Positions 24,931-56,337 of a DNA stretch of 64,000 nucleotides are shown here, piece after piece (positions within the stretch are counted from its first letter, which is position 1; every line of letters starts with the position of its first letter). The DNA is from Woeseia sp. (lineage in GTDB: Bacteria > Pseudomonadota > Gammaproteobacteria > Steroidobacterales > Woeseiaceae). The stretch spans positions 7,348-71,347 of the forward strand of contig JBHHWI010000001.1 in assembly GCA_046756445.1 (NCBI GenBank), in the 5' to 3' direction. Made by a program: the position numbers and the translations under genes. The notes under the pieces are model-generated. The model was not told the origin of the DNA. It saw only the letters and a program-made list of their open reading frames with translations, and ran no database searches.

Positions 24931-25183
24931 AGACCTGCTCGAATTTCCCTGTGAGTTCTCGATCAAGATGATGGGCCGGGATCGGCCACAGTTTCGCGCC
25001 GCGGCAATCTCACTCATCGAGCAACACGCGGGAAAGATACACGACGATGCCATCCGCACGGCAGTGAGCCGCAACGGCAACTTTCTGTCTGTAACGATCA
25101 CCATAGAGGCGCAGCACCGGCAGCAGCTTGACGACATCTATCGTGATCTCGGCAATCACGACGATATTCTGATCGCGCTGTGA
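24923..25183 (+). CDS. ybeD: YbeD/DUF493 family protein
   Basis: 86 aa (LLEFPCEFSIKMMG...), located between dacA and lipB as in E. coli. Confidence 0.85.
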   Translation: MNKDLLEFPCEFSIKMMGRDRPQFRAAAISLIEQHAGKIHDDAIRTAVSRNGNFLSVTITIEAQHRQQLDDIYRDLGNHDDILIAL

Positions 25184-25824
25184 CGGCACCTGAAAAAACT
25201 CAGCCCCCGCGAGAGACCATGATCGGGATACGCTCGCTCGGGCGAAGGGAATACGAGCCGCTCTGGCGCGAGATGCAGGACTTCACCAACACGCGCAACC
25301 AGGCGACACCGGATGAGCTCTGGTTCGCTGAACACCCGCCGGTCTTCACGCTTGGCCTGAACGCGAGCCGCGAACACCTGCTCGCCCCGGGCAATATCCC
25401 CGTCGTGCAGATCGACCGTGGCGGCCAGGTCACCTATCACGGACCCGGTCAGCTCATGATCTACCCGCTCATCGACCTGAAACGAAAAGACATGGGAGTC
25501 CGCGACCTCGTCTCCGCACTCGAACAGTCGGTCGTTGACCTCGCCGGCCAATACGGCATCGACGCCGCGAGCAGAAAAGACGCCCCGGGCGTTTACGTAA
25601 AAGGAAAAAAACTGGCGAGCGTCGGCCTGCGCATACGCCGCAATGCCAGCTACCACGGCATGGCGCTGAACGTGGACATGGACCTCGAACCCTTCAGCCG
25701 CATCAACCCCTGCGGCTTCAGCGATCTCGAGGCCACCGACTTCAAGTCATTAGGCATCACCAAGGGTCTGCAAGAAGTCGAACAAGACCTGCAAGCGCAC
25801 CTGCTCGAGCAACTTGGATTCTGA
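25180..25824 (+). CDS. lipB: octanoyltransferase (lipoyl(octanoyl) transferase)
   Basis: 214 aa (WFAEHPPVFTLG...RGGQVTYHGPGQL...PCG). ATGA-type overlap with ybeD. Confidence 0.95.
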   Translation: MTAPEKTQPPRETMIGIRSLGRREYEPLWREMQDFTNTRNQATPDELWFAEHPPVFTLGLNASREHLLAPGNIPVVQIDRGGQVTYHGPGQLMIYPLIDLKRKDMGVRDLVSALEQSVVDLAGQYGIDAASRKDAPGVYVKGKKLASVGLRIRRNASYHGMALNVDMDLEPFSRINPCGFSDLEATDFKSLGITKGLQEVEQDLQAHLLEQLGF

Positions 25825-25884: not shown

Positions 25885-26427
25885 TCATACCAGGAATCTC
25901 CTGACGATCAGAGACCAGACGACGATAACGATCAGGAAGTACCATGCCAGCCAGCGGTGGAATACCGGTTTTTGCAGGAATACGCCGAGTAGTGCGAGCA
26001 GCGCGAAGTGCAGCACGAACGGCAGGTAGTACCACGGAACAAACAGACCACCGCGGGCTGCCGTCTGCAGGATGTCCATCAGCACGAGTCCCGCAAATGC
26101 CCACAGAAACCAGTTCCGCCGGTATTCGAAGGGACTTTCGGTCCCGGCAGCCTGTGGCGGATACAGCGTGATGGCGGCCAGATAGTGGGCCACGGACCAG
26201 AGTATGATGACCAGGAACTTGTAAAAGCTCCAGATCGTCTGTTCGGACCACGGGAACAGCGTCCACCAGTTGAGAATCATCACCATCAATATGAAGCCGG
26301 TCCACACCAGGTGGATGTCGTTGACGGTTCTCCGATAGACAGACCGAATCGCACCGCGAAGGACGTGCGTAAGACTGATGCCGAAGATTATCGAGACAAA
26401 TACGGCCAGGTACTCGAATTCGTTCAT
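25885..26427 (-). CDS. hypothetical polytopic membrane protein (about 6 TM)
   Basis: 180-aa ORF, strongly hydrophobic and Trp-rich (ILNWWTLFPW, LWSVAHYLAAITLYP). I recognise no family. Confidence 0.6.
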   Translation of the reverse strand: MNEFEYLAVFVSIIFGISLTHVLRGAIRSVYRRTVNDIHLVWTGFILMVMILNWWTLFPWSEQTIWSFYKFLVIILWSVAHYLAAITLYPPQAAGTESPFEYRRNWFLWAFAGLVLMDILQTAARGGLFVPWYYLPFVLHFALLALLGVFLQKPVFHRWLAWYFLIVIVVWSLIVRRFLV

Positions 26428-26478
26428 CGCAACTACGACTCCCCCTGCAGTCCGGTTCGCCGCCGCCGTCCCGGCGGC

Positions 26479-26895
26479 CTAATCCGTAGACAGTTTTCCA
26501 ATCGCCCTGAGGAAACCCTTTTTGTCCTCCGGTGAAATCATGATCCGCCGGTTGTTGCCGTAAGTGATCTTCAATCGATCCAGCGACAAGGCAGGCGACG
26601 AAAGCGGGCTGTGAGTCTCCGTGATATCGGTAATCTCCACGATCGATATGGTCTTGAAGAAGGGCCCACACACGATCCTGAGCTTGCCGTCGGAGACCGT
26701 ATAGTGCGTTCGCAGCAGGATCGAAACGATCAGCAAAATTCCCGGCATAGTCGTCGCAACGACTATGGTCTTTTCATTGCCCGTCGTGTCACTCAGCAAG
26801 GTCACGACAAGCGCATAAGCCATTCCCAGGATCCCGAAGAGCAGCAGTGTCAAAAGCCAGGCGTCGATTCTCGACCGAAAACGCATTGTCGTCAT
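26479..26895 (-). CDS. membrane-anchored bacterial PH (bPH/YdbS-like) domain protein
   Basis: Start at ATG 26895 (MTTMRFRSRIDAW...), 4 nt after the upstream ORF's stop. Two TM helices followed by YTVSDGKLRIVCGPFFKTISIVEITDI...LDRLKITYG, which is typical of bPH domains. Confidence 0.65.
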   Translation of the reverse strand: MTTMRFRSRIDAWLLTLLLFGILGMAYALVVTLLSDTTGNEKTIVVATTMPGILLIVSILLRTHYTVSDGKLRIVCGPFFKTISIVEITDITETHSPLSSPALSLDRLKITYGNNRRIMISPEDKKGFLRAIGKLSTD

Positions 26896-26899
26896 CGCC

Positions 26900-27091
26900 T
26901 TAGTGTTCGGACAGGAACTGCACGATCTCGGAACTGACATCGGCAAGCGCACCTGCGATCGCCATAAGAGCCGGTTTGCTATCGTGGAACACGCGGTGCA
27001 GTTCAGCATAACGAGGACGCAGTTCGTCGCCACTACAGGCGGCCAATATTCCCCATAATGCGGCGAACTGAATTACGGAACGGGGATTCAA
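26900..27091 (-). CDS. small hypothetical lipoprotein (63 aa)
   Basis: TTG start 5 nt from the left-hand attC-like repeat. Signal peptide with lipobox (FAALWGILAAC). The stop lies 4 nt before the bPH gene. Short ORF, so uncertain. Confidence 0.4.
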   Translation of the reverse strand: MNPRSVIQFAALWGILAACSGDELRPRYAELHRVFHDSKPALMAIAGALADVSSEIVQFLSEH

Positions 27092-27096
27092 GTGAC

Positions 27097-27200
27097 ACCT
27101 AACGGTTTAGCTAACTTGCGCCAAGTATCTGGCGCGAAGATCGCCGTTGCAAGCTTTGTGACAGATGCTGCCTGGCGGCAAGCTCAGCGATTTGTTAGGC
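27097..27200 (-). repeat. attC-like imperfect hairpin repeat, copy A (104 bp)
   Basis: Begins ACCTAAC and ends GTTAGGC (RYYYAAC / GTTRRRY). The arms pair with bulges and the centre is variable. It starts 2 nt after the ParE-type toxin's stop codon. Confidence 0.6.
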
Positions 27201-27202
27201 GG

Positions 27203-27529
27203 CTATTCCCGACCACGCCAGAAACCAGGGCGTCTGCGACGATGTGCAACGGCCACAATCACTATCTCATCATTTGACACTCGATATATGACCGAGTACG
27301 GAAAACGGTGAACCGGACGCCTTCGTAAATCACCGCGGATTAATCTCGCAGCCTTGGGTAGCTCAAGAATTCGCTCCCGCGTTCTTTTGAATTCGACGAG
27401 AAATGCTGCTCCAAGGCCCGGCTGCTGAGATTCGTAATAGGAAATTGAGGCTTCGAGTTCCTGGAAGCCTGCGGCAAGATACGAACAATGCTCATCCGAG
27501 TTTCTGTTCGATCTCGGAAACCACCTCAT
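27203..27529 (-). CDS. RelE/ParE-family toxin
   Basis: 108 aa. The C-terminal part (RRRPVHRFPYSVIYRVSNDEIVIVAVAHRRRRP) is a typical ParE/RelE fold signature. Overlaps the antitoxin gene by 38 nt. Confidence 0.8.
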   Translation of the reverse strand: MRWFPRSNRNSDEHCSYLAAGFQELEASISYYESQQPGLGAAFLVEFKRTRERILELPKAARLIRGDLRRRPVHRFPYSVIYRVSNDEIVIVAVAHRRRRPGFWRGRE

Positions 27530-27722
27530 CTACCGGACGTGCTTCGGTTCTTCCAGCATCATAGTCAGACAGCCGCCGCTCCGCTTCGTCCAACCATTGC
27601 TCTTCGGCGTCTTCGTCGGTGCCCGGGTCAAGGCTTTCAATCAGCCTAAGGGCGAGACGGGCTCTGTCTTTCGGTGCCAGTTCTTTCGCCTGTTTTTCAA
27701 GGTTTCGGGTCTCGGAAGGCAT
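27492..27722 (-). CDS. addiction-module antitoxin (short helical type that partners ParE/RelE)
   Basis: ATG at 27722 gives 76 aa (LAPKDRARLALRLIESLDPGTDEDAEEQWLDEAERRLSDYDAG). The longer ORF (GTG 27770) would include the predicted promoter. Confidence 0.7.
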   Translation of the reverse strand: MPSETRNLEKQAKELAPKDRARLALRLIESLDPGTDEDAEEQWLDEAERRLSDYDAGRTEARPVDEVVSEIEQKLG

Positions 27723-27728
27723 ACGGTC

Positions 27729-27757
27729 ACAATAGAAGCACAAGCGAAGTGAGTCAA
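27729..27757 (-). promoter_or_regulatory. sigma70-like promoter of the toxin/antitoxin cassette
   Basis: On the minus strand: TTGACT, 17 nt, TATTGT, then 6 nt to the antitoxin ATG. This implies a leaderless or near-leaderless transcript. Confidence 0.4.
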
Positions 27758-27789
27758 CGCCCAATTTCACGTAATTAGCTGAGAAAGCC

Positions 27790-27892
27790 GCCTAACGGTT
27801 TAGCTAACCTGCGCCAAGTATCTGGCGCGGCTATTGCCTTTGCAAGAGCCGTGACAGATACGTCCGGCGGCCAGCGCAGCGATTTGTTAGGC
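27790..27892 (-). repeat. attC-like imperfect hairpin repeat, copy B (103 bp)
   Basis: GCCTAAC...GTTAGGC termini form a 7-bp inverted repeat. The first 40 nt match copy A at 38/40 and the last 16 nt are identical, while the centre has diverged. It starts 4 nt after the stop of the 99-aa ORF. Confidence 0.6.
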
Positions 27893-27896
27893 GTCA

Positions 27897-28196
27897 TCAC
27901 TTTCTCGCATTTTTTCTCGAGCGGCGCAATACATTAAAACCACCTATGTTAGCGGCGAGCATAATTGCGGCATTCACAATTGTGGCAATACGATCCCCAG
28001 CAGCGACGAACCAAAATAGACCAAGCAAAGAAACAACCACAAAGAGTGTCATCAGCAGATGTTGTCCAGTAACTGGCGGTGCCTGTTCGTGCTTCGGTGC
28101 GGACCGCGTCATCCACCAGCGCATTGGAAAGAACAAAATGGCACCAATTGTTACGCTGCCAAGAACGAGAATGCCAATGACTAGTAGGTTGTCCAA
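27897..28196 (-). CDS. hypothetical small membrane protein (99 aa, about 3 TM)
   Basis: TTG start, hydrophobic (LLVIGILVLGSVTIGAILFF...LLMTLFVVVSLLGLFWFVAAG...) with a basic C-terminus. Lower-GC DNA. Confidence 0.5.
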   Translation of the reverse strand: MDNLLVIGILVLGSVTIGAILFFPMRWWMTRSAPKHEQAPPVTGQHLLMTLFVVVSLLGLFWFVAAGDRIATIVNAAIMLAANIGGFNVLRRSRKNARK

Positions 28197-28360
28197 ATTG
28201 ACGCCTGACTATTTATGAGGCGAAATAGCCATAGTTGTTGCAGGCGGAAGTGCGTTATAACTTGTCTTGGCATTGATGAGTGCCTGACAATTAGGAGTTT
28301 GCTTGGAATACTATATTGCACATCTAAGGAAGGATATCAGGCAATTGTGATGCACGGGAC

Positions 28361-29014
28361 TTACCGTCTGTTCAGTCGTTCCAGGCGCTCGGCTGTTCCC
28401 ACGTCCTCCCAGAGTCCTTCGTACAGGCTGCCGCTCAGTTTTCCGTTATCGGCGGCTCTGCGCAGAATCGGGGTTATCGGGAATCGGCCGGGCTTTTGAT
28501 CCATGAAGAGTTCCCGGCGATAGAGCGCGAAGCCGCTGAATGTCAGTGCCGGGCTTTTCGCGTTGCGAATGATCCCGTCCTGTAGCTCGAAGTCGACGTT
28601 GTTTCTGTCGGCGGGTGTCGGCACCAGGATCAGGTGGCCGAGCATGTCGCTGTCAAGTCTCGTTTCGGGTAGCCGGAAGTCGGTGTAGGTGTCGGCGTTG
28701 ATGACCCAGAAGGGTTCGCTGCCGAGTAATGGCAGGGCGCGGTGAATGCCCCCACCGGTATCGAGCACATTGTCGTATTCCGGGCTGTAGATGACGTTCA
28801 GCCCGAACCGCGATCCGGAGCCGACTCTCTCGACGATCTGTTCTCCCAGCCAACCGAGGTTGATGACAACAGTGTCGACGCCGCGTTCCCCGAGTGCTTT
28901 TAGATGGCGCTCGAGCAGGCTTTCACCGTTAACCTCGACCAGTGCCTTCGGCAGTTCGTCCGTCAGTGGACGAAGCCGCTCGCCGCGGCCGGCTGCAAGA
29001 ATCATCGCGATCAT
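28361..29014 (-). CDS. murU: N-acetylmuramate alpha-1-phosphate uridylyltransferase-type nucleotidyltransferase
   Basis: 217 aa with motif MILAAGRGERLRPLTDELPKALV. Overlaps the amgK-like kinase gene. The pair lies divergent from lptD, as in Pseudomonas. Confidence 0.8.
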   Translation of the reverse strand: MIAMILAAGRGERLRPLTDELPKALVEVNGESLLERHLKALGERGVDTVVINLGWLGEQIVERVGSGSRFGLNVIYSPEYDNVLDTGGGIHRALPLLGSEPFWVINADTYTDFRLPETRLDSDMLGHLILVPTPADRNNVDFELQDGIIRNAKSPALTFSGFALYRRELFMDQKPGRFPITPILRRAADNGKLSGSLYEGLWEDVGTAERLERLNRR

Positions 29015-56058: not shown

Positions 56059-56240
56059 CCTCTGTCCGGTAACCTGAGAGATCGCGCCGCGTGTCTCGCC
56101 AGGCGGCTGCATTCCCCTTCGGTGGGCCAAAAGCTGCCTCTCTCCAGAGCTGATCAGGATGTTCAGTCCGTCTGCCTGAGCGTTTCCGGGCGAGTTGCGC
56201 CTTCGGCGCCCCGTGTTACCGGGGTCTCTTCTGCACACCC
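56055..56240 (-). promoter_or_regulatory. tandem glycine riboswitch (two aptamers) in the gcvT leader
   Basis: The minus strand reads ...AGAGACCCCGGTAACACGGGGCGCCGAAGGCGCAA...CTCAGGCAGACGGAC... then CTCTGGAGAGAGGCAG...CCCACCGAAGGGGAA...CTCAGGTTACCGGACAGAGG. These match the conserved cores of glycine aptamers 1 and 2. Confidence 0.85.
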
Positions 56241-56337
56241 TATGGATCAGTGGGCGCAATCATAGCCAAGTGTCTCGACAGTTGCCAGCAGCCCGCAAGC
56301 TCGTAACAATGCGGGCACAACGCGCGGGAGAATACCG

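What the first reader, a model, noticed from the sequence alone, without database searches (positions are those of the whole stretch)
27097..27892. Two attC-like imperfect-hairpin repeats bracket a ParE/antitoxin module: an integron-style cassette array with no integrase in the window
Seen: the 104-bp (27097-27200) and 103-bp (27790-27892) direct repeats are about 83% identical. The first 40 nt match at 38/40 and the last 16 nt at 16/16, but the centres have diverged. Each starts (A/G)CCTAAC and ends GTTAGGC, matching the RYYYAAC inverse core and GTTRRRY core. The two arms pair into a long stem with an unpaired spacer next to the terminal box and single-base bulges. On the minus strand each repeat begins 2-4 nt after an ORF stop (the toxin and the 99-aa ORF), and the next ORF starts shortly after its end. 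Known: this is the architecture of integron attC sites (conserved ends, variable centre, a folded single strand with extrahelical bases). TA modules with their own promoters are typical cassettes of chromosomal integrons. Arrays without intI are known as CALINs. Inference: the minus strand is the cassette top strand. The extra bulged bases lie on the right-hand arm, consistent with that polarity. The array reads from 28.2 kb down to 27.1 kb, downstream of murU, and the integrase is either lost or elsewhere.
Basis: partly seen in the sequence, partly recalled or inferred. Interest (0 to 1): 0.7.

Follow-up and report, generated by a model that had tools for sequence, protein, structure and literature searches.

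The report
Integrase-less integron cassette array in Woeseia
The two repeats are genuine integron cassette recombination sites (attC) in a marine-sediment Woeseia genome, forming a short gene-cassette array with no integrase gene nearby, and the array begins at a conserved 145-base attI-like "leader" that also heads integrase-less arrays at other chromosomal positions in related bacteria.

Summary

- **The repeats.** Window 27097-27200 and 27790-27892 are 87/104 identical. They are the only two copies in the 64 kb.
- **The family.** About 130 full-length copies were recovered from Woeseiaceae MAGs and sediment metagenomes. They lie in same-strand arrays with a median period of 567 nt, usually just after a small ORF.
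- **attC evidence.**
  - The ends are RYYYAAC and GTTRRRY.
  - The R-to-L spacers are 5 and 6 nt, and the extra bases lie on one arm.
  - The centre varies in length and shows compensatory changes.
  - The bases after G|TT of one site complement the start of the next site, which is the cassette-boundary signature.
  - The same family sits beside verified integron integrases (TIGR02249, 451 bits) at a conserved trpS locus in relatives.
- **Integrase.** The window holds no intI or intI remnant, so the array is a CALIN.
- **Layout, minus strand.** murU, a 145-nt leader, a 99-aa ORF cassette, attC, an antitoxin/ParE cassette, attC, then three ORFs with no attC, then lipB. A more distant relative has murU and lipB abutting, which is the empty site.
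- **New point.** The leader recurs at array heads beside murU, rnd and purD. It is weakly homologous to the intI-linked attI region, and first cassettes differ between strains exactly at its G|TT. This suggests orphan attI platforms served in trans.

Overall this is a known kind of element with an unusual architecture.

The parts
27790..27892 (-). attC site 2, which closes the 99-aa ORF cassette. Top strand reads GCCTAAC-AAATC-GCTGCGC...GTTAGC-TAAACC-G|TTAGGC, with the crossover G at 27796.
   Evidence: The family covariance model R1 scores it 115.3 bits, E 1e-27, on the minus strand. Its R' extension GTTAGGCGGCT is complementary to the R'' extension AGCCGCCTAAC of the next site.
27097..27200 (-). 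attC site 1, which closes the antitoxin/ParE cassette. Its R' is G|TTAGGT, with the crossover G at 27103. The bases TTAGGTGTCAC that follow look like the start of a further cassette.
   Evidence: R1 scores it 121.3 bits, E 2.7e-29. The R' extension GTTAGGTGTCAC is identical over 12 nt to cassette starts in L026 and L034.
28200..28344 (-). A 145-nt array leader, a candidate orphan attI-like site. It starts about 17 nt after the murU stop and ends ...CGCCTCATAAATAG|TCAGGCGTCA, with the junction G at 28209. In this lineage the crossover triplet reads GTC instead of GTT, and 3 nt are missing relative to other copies.
   Evidence: The leader HMM scores 139.9 bits here. Full-length homologues (125-139 bits) occur only at array heads beside murU, rnd and purD. 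It aligns collinearly with intI-linked attI regions, with weak reciprocal HMM hits at E 0.004-0.03. Similarity between strains ends exactly at the junction.
27897..28196 (-). Cassette 1 ORF: a 99-aa predicted membrane protein with no family assignment. The whole cassette spans 28208-27796.
   Evidence: ORF list. The only Pfam match is a sub-threshold LNT_N hit. The cassette start GTCAGGCGTCA matches the reverse complement of the attC2 R'' extension (TGACGCCTAAC) at 10 of 11 positions.
27492..27722 (-). Cassette 2, antitoxin gene (76 aa from the ATG at 27722; an upstream GTG at 27770 is also possible).
   Evidence: Pfam Unstab_antitox PF09720, 50.7 bits against a cut-off of 23.3.
27203..27529 (-). 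Cassette 2, ParE-family toxin gene, probably carrying a 1-nt frameshift near codon 10. The ATG at 27495 overlaps the antitoxin stop as ATGA and opens a different frame.
   Evidence: Pfam ParE_toxin PF05016 scores 34.6 bits over profile positions 9-88 for the ORF as it stands. A frame-corrected protein starting MSIVRILPQAFQELE... scores 41.2 bits over positions 1-88.
27729..27757 (-). Promoter-like site inside cassette 2, upstream of the antitoxin (TTGACT-17-TATTGT).
   Evidence: Consensus scan only. There were 3 promoter-like sites in the region against 1.6 expected, so this is weak evidence.
25885..27102 (-). Distal part of the insertion. It opens with a cassette-type start (TTAGGTGTCAC) and holds three co-oriented ORFs with no attC after them: 63 aa (26900-27091), a bPH_4 domain protein (26479-26892) and a 180-aa membrane protein (25885-26427).
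   Evidence: ORFs and Pfam bPH_4 at 82 bits. No R1 hit was found. No RYYYAAC or further GTTRRRY occurs on this strand. The 180-aa protein has a weak homologue (27% identity, E 1e-4) inside an attC-flanked cassette of L031. GC is 0.48-0.57 against about 0.60 in the flanks.
28361..29014 (-). murU, the housekeeping gene directly upstream of the array and co-oriented with it. This is context and a possible source of read-through transcription, not part of the element.
   Evidence: Pfam NTP_transferase. It is 100% identical to MFQ5546678.1 from a Woeseia sp. MAG.
25180..25824 (+). lipB, the convergent housekeeping gene that bounds the insertion on the far side (context only).
   Evidence: Pfam LplA-B_cat at 124 bits. 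In L050, murU and lipB converge with nothing between them.

Best explanation
**What it is.** The two repeats are attC sites of the chromosomal-integron family of Woeseia/Woeseiaceae, which are marine-sediment Gammaproteobacteria.

**Layout on the minus strand.** The insertion is about 2.5 kb and lies between the convergent genes murU and lipB. It reads:
- a 145-nt attI-like leader;
- cassette 1, a 99-aa membrane ORF, closed by attC2;
- cassette 2, an antitoxin/ParE module with its own promoter-like site, closed by attC1;
- a third cassette start, followed by three ORFs whose attC sites are gone.

No integrase gene is nearby, so the element is a CALIN.

**Mechanism (inferred from integron biology).**
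- The bottom strand of each attC is the window + strand. It folds into an imperfect hairpin with an R box, an unpaired spacer, an L box, extrahelical bases and a variable tip.
- An IntI tyrosine recombinase cuts between G and TT of the R' core.
- attC x attC recombination would excise the toxin-antitoxin cassette as a circle. Recombination at the leader's G|TT would insert or remove first-position cassettes.
- IntI must come in trans. In relatives it is encoded at a conserved trpS-ggt locus that carries large arrays of the same attC family.
- The cassettes face the same way as murU and could be transcribed by read-through.

**Shown versus inferred.** Shown here are the site anatomy, family membership, cassette boundaries, the link to IntI in relatives, the absence of intI in the window, the empty site, and strain-specific first cassettes. 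Inferred are present-day activity, the source of IntI, and expression.
For: 1. **Repeats.** They are real and occur only twice in the window.
2. **Family.** A genome scan and a metagenome scan with conserved repeat words returned a Woeseiaceae MAG and 29 metagenome contigs carrying arrays. The covariance and profile models find about 130 full-length sites, always on one strand within a contig. There are 67 unique cassettes with a median period of 567 nt. The longest ORF is on the top strand in 49 of 67, and its stop is within 20 nt of the site in 30 of those 49.
3. **Cassette-boundary signature.** The 8 nt following GTTAG of site n-1 complement the 8 nt preceding CTAAC of site n at 6.3 of 8 positions. 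The figure is 3.8 within one site and 4.0 for random pairs. The window pair fits: GTTAGGCGGCT against AGCCGCCTAAC.
4. **Structure.** Four pairs in the central stem carry 4-14 double (compensatory) changes, and the centre has insertions of about 12 and 18 nt. The bottom strand is more stable in 47 of 48 members, mean -25.9 against -20.7 kcal/mol.
5. **Link to IntI.** L020 4655-5611 scores 451 bits on TIGR02249 integron integrase (cut-off 265), and L026 scores 362 bits. Both are divergent from arrays of this attC family. L046, L047 and L049 show intI at a conserved trpS-ggt-pepQ locus. The sources name these proteins integron integrase of Woeseia or Woeseiaceae.
6. **No intI in the window**.
7. 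**Insertion.** GC dips across 25.8-28.4 kb. In L050, murU and lipB abut.
8. **Leader.** It occurs full-length at murU, rnd and purD array heads. It is collinear with intI-linked attI regions, with weak reciprocal hits. In L036 the first cassette starts exactly at the leader's G|TTAGACAGCGC, and its own attC begins with the complementary sequence GCGCTGTCTAAC. At the murU locus the window, L036 and L042 carry different first cassettes. At purD, L031 and L021 differ as well.
Against: - The IntegronFinder attC model could not be run. My model was built from the family itself, including the two window sites, so its scores on those sites are not independent.
- The metagenome copies were retrieved with a 30-nt pattern taken from the window repeats. 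Conservation of that end is therefore ascertained, not measured.
- Nothing shows that the source genome still has a working IntI. Relatives include a C-terminal IntI remnant (L025) and a 160-aa truncated IntI in Woeseia oceani.
- In this lineage the leader's crossover triplet is GTC, not GTT, and 3 nt are deleted. The toxin looks frameshifted. The distal ORFs have lost their attC sites. Together these suggest that part of the array is a fossil.
- Leader-to-attI homology is statistically weak. E-values are 0.004-0.03 and identity is 39-55%. The attI HMM does not hit the window's own leader.
Confidence: 0.88

Rival explanations
1. The array is the stump of a complete integron that once sat at this spot. 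On this reading intI was deleted in place, and the leader is simply its old attI region with no present role.
For: intI decay does occur in this group. L025 keeps only IntI residues 244-319 next to an attC at the trpS locus. Woeseia oceani has a 160-aa truncated IntI. The leader aligns collinearly with the whole intI-attI intergenic region, up to the position of the intI start codon. Cury et al. 2016 (PMC4889954) list integrase loss as one origin of CALINs.
Against: In four lineages with murU 75-100% identical, the leader starts 4-25 nt after the murU stop codon. No IntI-like fragment lies beside any leader. The same 5' boundary recurs beside rnd and purD. Independent deletions would not all end at the same base. 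First cassettes differ between lineages that share the murU-leader junction, so recombination at the leader occurred after that junction existed.
Confidence: 0.12
2. The cassettes were inserted by IntI directly into an ordinary chromosomal secondary site (attG, consensus G|WT) downstream of murU. This is the route proposed for small CALINs and SALINs, and on this reading no attI-like site is involved.
For: Two-attC CALINs are the commonest class (1362 of 2961). Most CALINs are not near intI pseudogenes. Cassette insertion at GWT sites was shown experimentally (bioRxiv 10.1101/2022.09.11.507474). The window array is small and lies in an intergenic region downstream of a transcribed gene.
Against: The sequence upstream of the first cassette is not locus-specific DNA. 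It is a 145-nt element shared by arrays at three different loci (125-140 bits). L050 has no such sequence between murU and lipB. An attG insertion would leave native sequence up to the G.
Confidence: 0.06
3. The repeats are a REP-, MITE- or terminator-type intergenic repeat that merely resembles attC.
For: They are imperfect palindromes about 100 nt long, placed after ORFs, with conserved ends.
Against: Only two copies occur in 64 kb. Elsewhere they form same-strand arrays next to integron integrases. The flanking-base covariation between successive copies is specific to cassettes. No T-run follows the hairpins, and neither repeat is listed among the terminator-like sites. Rfam has no match there.
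Confidence: 0.02

Closest known systems
CALIN (cluster of attC sites lacking an integron integrase; Cury et al. 2016, PMC4889954)
   Same: It has two attC sites on one strand with cassette ORFs. No intI lies within 4 kb, and in fact none lies in the 27 kb and 36 kb on either side. A size of two attC sites is the commonest CALIN class.
   Different: The array is headed by a conserved attI-like leader that recurs at other integrase-less arrays. CALIN descriptions do not include an attI, and IntegronFinder annotates attI only for classes 1-3.
Sedentary chromosomal integrons with species-specific attC families, such as the Vibrio cholerae VCR repeats and Xanthomonas ilvD-linked integrons (from memory; Xanthomonas: bioRxiv 10.1101/2025.06.18.660453, seen in the search listing only)
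   Same: The attC sites are highly similar within the lineage (window copies 84% identical to each other) and about 104-122 nt long. Cassettes are small and mostly of unknown function. Toxin-antitoxin cassettes are present. The chromosomal location is conserved (intI at trpS in Woeseiaceae). intI is decayed in some lineages.
   Different: The window locus is not the intI locus. It is a separate short array at murU/lipB with its own attI-like head and no integrase.
Cassette insertion at genomic attG sites / SALINs (bioRxiv 10.1101/2022.09.11.507474)
   Same: Cassettes lie outside the main integron, in an intergenic region, co-oriented with an upstream gene, and would depend on IntI acting in trans.
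   Different: The entry point is a 145-nt conserved element related to attI, not a minimal G|WT site in native DNA.
attI1 of class 1 integrons (simple site plus upstream direct repeats; from memory)
   Same: The leader ends in a core-type R box at the crossover. An imperfect inverted L box (CGCCTCA) lies 7-10 nt upstream, and core-like repeats (TCAGGCA, GTTATAA) lie further upstream. The leader does not fold into an attC-like hairpin.
   Different: There is no sequence similarity to attI1, no adjacent intI, and IntI binding is untested.

Membership tests
attC site (integron cassette recombination site) | Inverse core R'' (RYYYAAC) at the 5' end and core R' (GTTRRRY) at the 3' end of the top strand | tested here: met
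   On the minus strand the sites read GCCTAAC...GTTAGGT and GCCTAAC...GTTAGGC. The ends are conserved across 48 unique family members.
attC site (integron cassette recombination site) | A single long imperfect hairpin with an R box, an unpaired spacer, an L box and extrahelical bases on the R''/L'' arm | tested here: met
   The bottom-strand fold shows a 7-8 bp R box, unpaired spacers of 5-6 and 4-5 nt, the L box GCT/AGC with an extra base, and a bulged G in TGGC[G]GCAA on the same arm. The spacers are 5 nt on the R'' side and 6 nt on the R' side, as I recall for attC of aadA7. The L-box extra base on the bottom strand is C rather than the usual G.
attC site (integron cassette recombination site) | A central region variable in length and sequence, with pairing maintained | tested here: met
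   Four stem pairs carry 4-14 double changes (for example GAAG/CTTC to GGCT/AGCC), and the centre has insertions of about 12 and 18 nt.
attC site (integron cassette recombination site) | Crossover at G|TT, so that bases 3' of GTT belong to the next cassette and pair with that cassette's own R'' | tested here: met
   Adjacent sites match at 6.3 of 8 positions, against 3.8 within a site and 4.0 at random. The window pair matches over 11 nt.
attC site (integron cassette recombination site) | Recognition by the generic attC covariance model of IntegronFinder | not testable with these tools
   That model is not available here and Rfam has no attC family. A family-specific model gives 121 and 115 bits, but it was trained on these sites among others.
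attC site (integron cassette recombination site) | Association of the same site family with an integron integrase and an attI | tested here: met
   L020, L026/L046 and L047 have IntI (TIGR02249, 451 and 362 bits for the two scanned) divergent from arrays of 6 to 12 or more sites of this family.
attC site (integron cassette recombination site) | Recombination by IntI on the folded bottom strand | not testable with these tools
   This needs an experiment. The only indirect support is that the bottom strand is more stable in 47 of 48 members.
CALIN | At least two attC sites clustered, with no integron integrase within 4 kb | tested here: met
   Two sites lie 693 nt apart. tblastn with IntI finds nothing in 64 kb, best E 0.14.
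Complete integron | An intI gene adjacent to attI and the cassette array | tested here: not met
   murU ends 17 nt before the leader, and there is no intI or fragment of one.
attI site | A double-stranded site at the head of the array, ending in the crossover G|TT, where first-position cassettes are exchanged | tested here: met
   Strain-specific first cassettes begin exactly at the leader's G|T. There is no attC-like hairpin: the consensus fold is -3.5 and -12.5 kcal/mol.
attI site | Homology to an attI that is linked to the cognate intI | tested here: inconclusive
   The 150-nt alignment is collinear. The leader HMM hits the L047 attI at E 0.004. The attI HMM hits the L031 and L016 leaders at E 0.006 and 0.028 but does not hit the window leader. 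Identity is 39-55%.
attI site | Canonical GTT at the crossover, and IntI binding | tested here: not met
   The window, L038 and L042 read GTC at the junction, whereas L036, L016, L031 and L021 read GTT. IntI binding cannot be tested here.
Type II toxin-antitoxin module (ParE toxin with PF09720 antitoxin) | Adjacent small antitoxin and toxin genes with family matches above the cut-offs | tested here: met
   Unstab_antitox scores 50.7 bits and ParE_toxin 34.6 bits. The toxin reading frame is probably broken near codon 10.
REP/MITE dispersed repeat | Many copies scattered in intergenic regions in either orientation | tested here: not met
   There are two copies in 64 kb. Elsewhere the copies occur only in same-strand arrays.

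The most novel reading that the evidence does not exclude
Woeseia genomes may run a distributed integron. One integrase gene sits at the trpS locus, and several integrase-less recruitment platforms are scattered around the chromosome. Each platform is a 145-nt copy of the intI-attI intergenic region that stops at the position of the intI start codon. The copies found so far lie downstream of murU, rnd and purD and face the same way as those genes. On this reading IntI acts on these orphan attI sites in trans, so cassettes are captured and exchanged at several transcribed chromosomal positions, and the window shows one such platform. How the leader itself spread to new loci with an identical 5' boundary is unexplained.
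Probability: 0.4. Interest if true: 0.7.

Novelty: new variant of a known kind. Interest (0 to 1): 0.5.

Why it matters
On its own, the finding adds a well-documented CALIN and a lineage-specific attC family for Woeseiaceae. These are among the most abundant bacteria of marine sediments, and my literature search found no paper whose title or abstract deals with integrons of this group.

The origin of CALINs is an open question. Most are not near intI remnants, and secondary-site insertion has been proposed. Here the head of the array is a repeated attI-like element, and first cassettes differ between strains exactly at its crossover point.

If IntI uses such orphan attI sites in trans, some CALINs would be working satellite platforms and not debris. 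attI copies would then be worth searching for in other genomes. Such platforms would also place captured genes under the transcription of housekeeping operons.

Tried and rejected
- **Rfam scan of the whole window.** The only hit is a glycine riboswitch at 56154-56243; nothing lies at the repeats or the leader.
- **Exact-protein look-up of murU.** It returned nothing, although a 100% identical protein exists in the homologue database.
- **Genome-collection 18-mer scan.** It gave six hits. Only L001 was real; L002-L006 are chance matches with no covariance-model hit.
- **Direct local alignment of the window leader to the L020 and L026 attI regions.** It was not significant beyond ATAGT[T/C]AGGCG. 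Homology emerged only with profiles and with L047.
- **The leader as a long attC.** I rejected this because there is no single hairpin and the consensus fold is weak. A 5-7 bp pairing between its 5' end and the junction is present in 4 of 7 copies, with one compensatory change. I leave that pairing unexplained.
- **A further or degenerate attC between 25.8 and 27.1 kb.** I found no model hit up to E = 10, no RYYYAAC, and no match to the expected R'' extension GTGACACCTAAC.
- **A sigma-70-type promoter in the leader pointing into the cassettes.** None was found. The only consensus match points the other way.
- **IntI remnants next to leaders.** None was found.
- **Whether the source MAG encodes IntI.** Protein accessions did not let me decide.
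Full report
**1. Observation**

Window 27097-27200 and 27790-27892 align at 87 of 104 positions. The first 40 nt match 38/40 and the last 16 match 16/16, with a diverged centre.

The + strand copies read ACCTAAC...GTTAGGC and GCCTAAC...GTTAGGC. The conserved 18-mer occurs twice in the window, against 0.01 expected from shuffles.

On the minus strand, the stop codon of the ParE-family ORF lies 2 nt before repeat 1. The stop codon of a 99-aa ORF lies 4 nt before repeat 2.

Pfam assigns the two genes between the repeats to Unstab_antitox (PF09720) and ParE_toxin (PF05016). The flanking genes are murU and amgK on one side and lipB on the other.

GC content falls to 0.48-0.57 across 25.8-28.4 kb, against about 0.60 outside.

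**2. The repeat belongs to a large family that forms cassette arrays**

A scan of one genome per species for GTTAGCTAAACCGTTAGG found a Woeseiaceae MAG contig, L001. It carries at least three copies in a row, each after a small ORF. The other five hits of that scan were chance matches.

A metagenome scan with a 30-nt degenerate pattern returned 29 contigs with up to six exact matches each.

I built covariance model R1 from 48 unique copies, and a sequence profile from the same alignment. Together they find about 130 full-length sites, all on one strand within each contig.
- There are 67 unique cassettes, with a median period of 567 nt and a range of 404-1373 nt.
- The longest ORF lies on the same strand as the site's top strand in 49 of 67.
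- In 30 of those 49, the ORF ends within 20 nt of the site.

In the window, R1 with filters off finds only the two sites. They score 121 and 115 bits on the minus strand and 29-37 bits on the plus strand.

**3. Tests of attC identity**

*Anatomy.* The top (minus) strand reads R'' GCCTAAC, a 5-nt spacer, L'' GCTGAGC with one extra base, a variable centre, L' GTTAGC, a 6-nt spacer, and R' GTTAGGY. The bottom strand folds into one long imperfect hairpin with an R box, an unpaired spacer, an L box and bulged bases on the R''/L'' arm.

*Covariation.* Four pairs of the central stem show 4-14 double changes. The centre also carries insertions of about 12 and 18 nt.

*Cassette-boundary signature.* In integrons the crossover lies between G and TT of R'. 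The bases after GTT therefore belong to the next cassette and pair with that cassette's own R''.
- Across 28 adjacent site pairs, the 8 nt after GTTAG of site n-1 complement the 8 nt before CTAAC of site n at 6.3 positions on average.
- The comparable figures are 3.8 within one site and 4.0 for random pairs.
- The window pair fits: GTTAGGCGGCT, then AGCCGCCTAAC.

*Link to the recombinase.* L020 and L026 carry, divergent from arrays of this family, proteins that score 451 and 362 bits on TIGR02249 integron integrase, whose cut-off is 265. Their homologues are named integron integrase of Woeseia or Woeseiaceae by the sources. Contigs L045/L046, L047/L048 and L049 show intI at a conserved trpS-ggt-pepQ locus, with 12 and 6 sites respectively on the contigs that include the array side. 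This is a sedentary chromosomal integron.

*Strand.* The bottom strand is the more stable fold in 47 of 48 members, mean -25.9 against -20.7 kcal/mol.

*Caveat.* I could not run the generic IntegronFinder attC model. R1 was trained on the family, so its scores on the window sites are not independent. The boundary test and the IntI association are the independent evidence.

**4. No integrase in the window**

tblastn with both IntI proteins finds nothing in the window; the best E-value is 0.14. The nearest window edges are 27 kb and 36 kb away. By definition the element is a CALIN.

The source is a Woeseia sp. MAG, since murU is 100% identical to MFQ5546678.1 on a 73-kb contig.

**5. Extent of the element and the empty site**

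Reading the minus strand:

| Feature | Window coordinates | Note |
|---|---|---|
| murU | ends at 28361 | upstream housekeeping gene |
| Leader | 28344-28200 | ends ...CATAAATAG\|TCAGGCGTCA, junction G at 28209 |
| Cassette 1 | 28208-27796 | 99-aa ORF plus attC2 |
| Cassette 2 | 27795-27103 | antitoxin, ParE, attC1 |
| Third cassette start | from 27102 | TTAGGTGTCAC, identical over 12 nt (with the preceding G) to cassette starts in L026 and L034 |
| Distal ORFs | 27091-25885 | 63 aa, bPH_4 domain protein, 180-aa membrane protein; no attC after them |
| lipB | 25180-25824 (+) | convergent housekeeping gene |

The start of cassette 1 matches the reverse complement of its own attC's R'' extension at 10 of 11 positions.

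After the third cassette start there is no model hit, no RYYYAAC and no further GTTRRRY on that strand. The 180-aa protein has a weak homologue inside an attC-flanked cassette of L031.

In a more distant relative, L050 (murU 68% identical, on a 3.1-Mb scaffold), murU and lipB converge with nothing between them. The 2.5 kb in the window is therefore an insertion. L040 and L051 carry other genes there and have no leader or attC.

**6. The leader**

The about 145 nt between murU and the first cassette is conserved in the window, L038/L039 (murU 92%), L036 (87%) and L041/L042/L044 (75%). Similarity stops exactly at the junction.

In L036 the junction reads ...AAATACAAG|TTAGACAGCGC. The first attC downstream begins GCGCTGTCTAAC, the exact complement. 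The cassette boundary therefore coincides with the end of the leader. L042 shows the same arrangement with decayed sites.

The same 145-nt element also heads arrays downstream of rnd (L016) and purD (L031, L021). The upstream flanks at those loci are unrelated. A leader profile gives 125-140 bits at these places and nothing comparable elsewhere.

First cassettes differ between strains that share a locus. At murU, the window, L036 and L042 all differ. At purD, L031 and L021 differ. At the murU locus the leader abuts the murU stop in all four lineages, so those exchanges occurred after the murU-leader junction existed, and they occurred without a cis intI.

The leader does not fold like an attC.

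It aligns collinearly over its whole length with the intI-attI intergenic regions of L047, L020, L026 and L049, up to the position of the intI start codon. The support is statistically weak:
- the leader profile hits the L047 attI at E 0.004;
- an attI profile hits the L031 leader at E 0.006 and the L016 leader at E 0.028, at the expected places, but does not hit the window's own leader;
- identity between leaders and attI regions is 39-55%, against 57-84% among leaders.

No IntI fragment lies beside any leader.

I read the leader as an attI-derived head of the array, most likely used by IntI in trans. How it came to lie at three loci with the same 5' boundary is unexplained.

**7. State of the window copy**

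Both attC sites look intact, with scores inside the family range and canonical GTTAGGY cores. Other parts look decayed:
- The leader's crossover triplet is GTC, not GTT. This is shared with L038 and L042, and the window and L038 also lack 3 nt of the spacer.
- The toxin ORF scores better when one base is restored near codon 10: 41.2 bits over profile positions 1-88, against 34.6 bits over positions 9-88. The ATG at 27495 overlaps the antitoxin stop as ATGA, which is the usual arrangement in such operons.
- The distal ORFs have no attC.

In principle the toxin-antitoxin cassette is still excisable by attC x attC recombination. The rest may be fixed in place.

**8. Comparison with what is known**

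The element is a CALIN in the sense of Cury et al. 2016. That paper lists integrase loss, rearrangement and secondary-site insertion as possible origins (PMC4889954).

The attG work shows that two-attC CALINs are the commonest class, and that IntI can insert cassettes at G|WT sites (bioRxiv 10.1101/2022.09.11.507474).

The window differs from a plain attG insertion because its entry point is a repeated attI-like element. It differs from a decayed integron because there is no room for, or trace of, an intI. My literature search found no paper whose title or abstract deals with Woeseia integrons.

**9. Verdict**

As an attC/CALIN call this is an ordinary member of a known kind in an under-studied lineage. 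The repeated orphan attI-like leader makes it an unusual variant worth an experiment. Interest 0.5.

Noticed in passing
window 27460-27530 (minus strand): The ParE toxin gene appears to carry a 1-nt frameshift. An ATG at 27495 overlaps the antitoxin stop (ATGA) and reads MSIVRILPQA in one frame, while the rest of the toxin continues in another. A frame-corrected protein scores 41.2 bits over ParE_toxin profile positions 1-88, against 34.6 bits over positions 9-88 for the ORF as it stands. This could be a real pseudogene or a MAG assembly error.
   Followed up: partly
window 56154-56243 (minus strand): Glycine riboswitch aptamer (RF00504, 61 bits). It is unrelated to the finding.
   Followed up: no
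L047 3560-3620 (intI-attI intergenic region); compare leaders in alignment A8: The intI-linked attI region of L047 contains CTGTTACTCGCAACAG, which has the CTGT-N8-ACAG form of a LexA box (recalled from memory). L020 and L026 have one-mismatch versions. The homologous part of the integrase-less leaders has lost the motif.
   Followed up: no
L025 1113-1340; Woeseia oceani protein ANO50661.1: intI decays at the trpS locus in some lineages. L025 keeps only IntI residues 244-319 (76% identity) next to an attC. The type strain Woeseia oceani has a 160-aa N-terminal fragment that falls in the same 90% cluster as a full-length Woeseia IntI.
   Followed up: partly
window 28207; L038 and L042 junctions; L042 about 6000: The second T of the crossover triplet is C (GTC) at the leader junction in the window, L038 and L042. 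It is also C in the R' of L042's degenerate attC (CCG|TCAAT). The same position of the recombination core is mutated in several decayed sites, which may reflect fixation of cassettes.
   Followed up: no
leader 5' end (window 28338-28343) against the junction (28203-28208): The leader's 5' end (GCCTGA) is complementary to the start of the first cassette (TCAGGC) in the window, L038, L042 and L031. There is one compensatory change (CTGA:TCAG in the window against CGGA:TCCG in L042). The pairing is absent in L036, L016 and L021. Its meaning is unknown.
   Followed up: partly
L038 and L039 contig ends, 204 nt after murU: Two independent short-read assemblies break at the same point, about 45 nt into the first cassette, after diverging from the window sequence over their last 20 nt or so. 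This is consistent with strain-level variation or repeats at this locus.
   Followed up: no
alignment A8 and the identity table: Leaders do not cluster by locus. The purD leader of L031 is 79% identical to the window's murU leader but only 63% identical to the purD leader of L021, which in turn is closest to the rnd leader of L016 (75%). This could reflect homogenisation of leader copies within genomes.
   Followed up: no
window 25885-26427 and L031 2087-2371: The attC-less 180-aa membrane ORF next to lipB has a weak homologue (27% identity over 96 aa, E 1e-4) inside an attC-flanked cassette of L031. This hints that the distal ORFs are former cassettes.
   Followed up: partly
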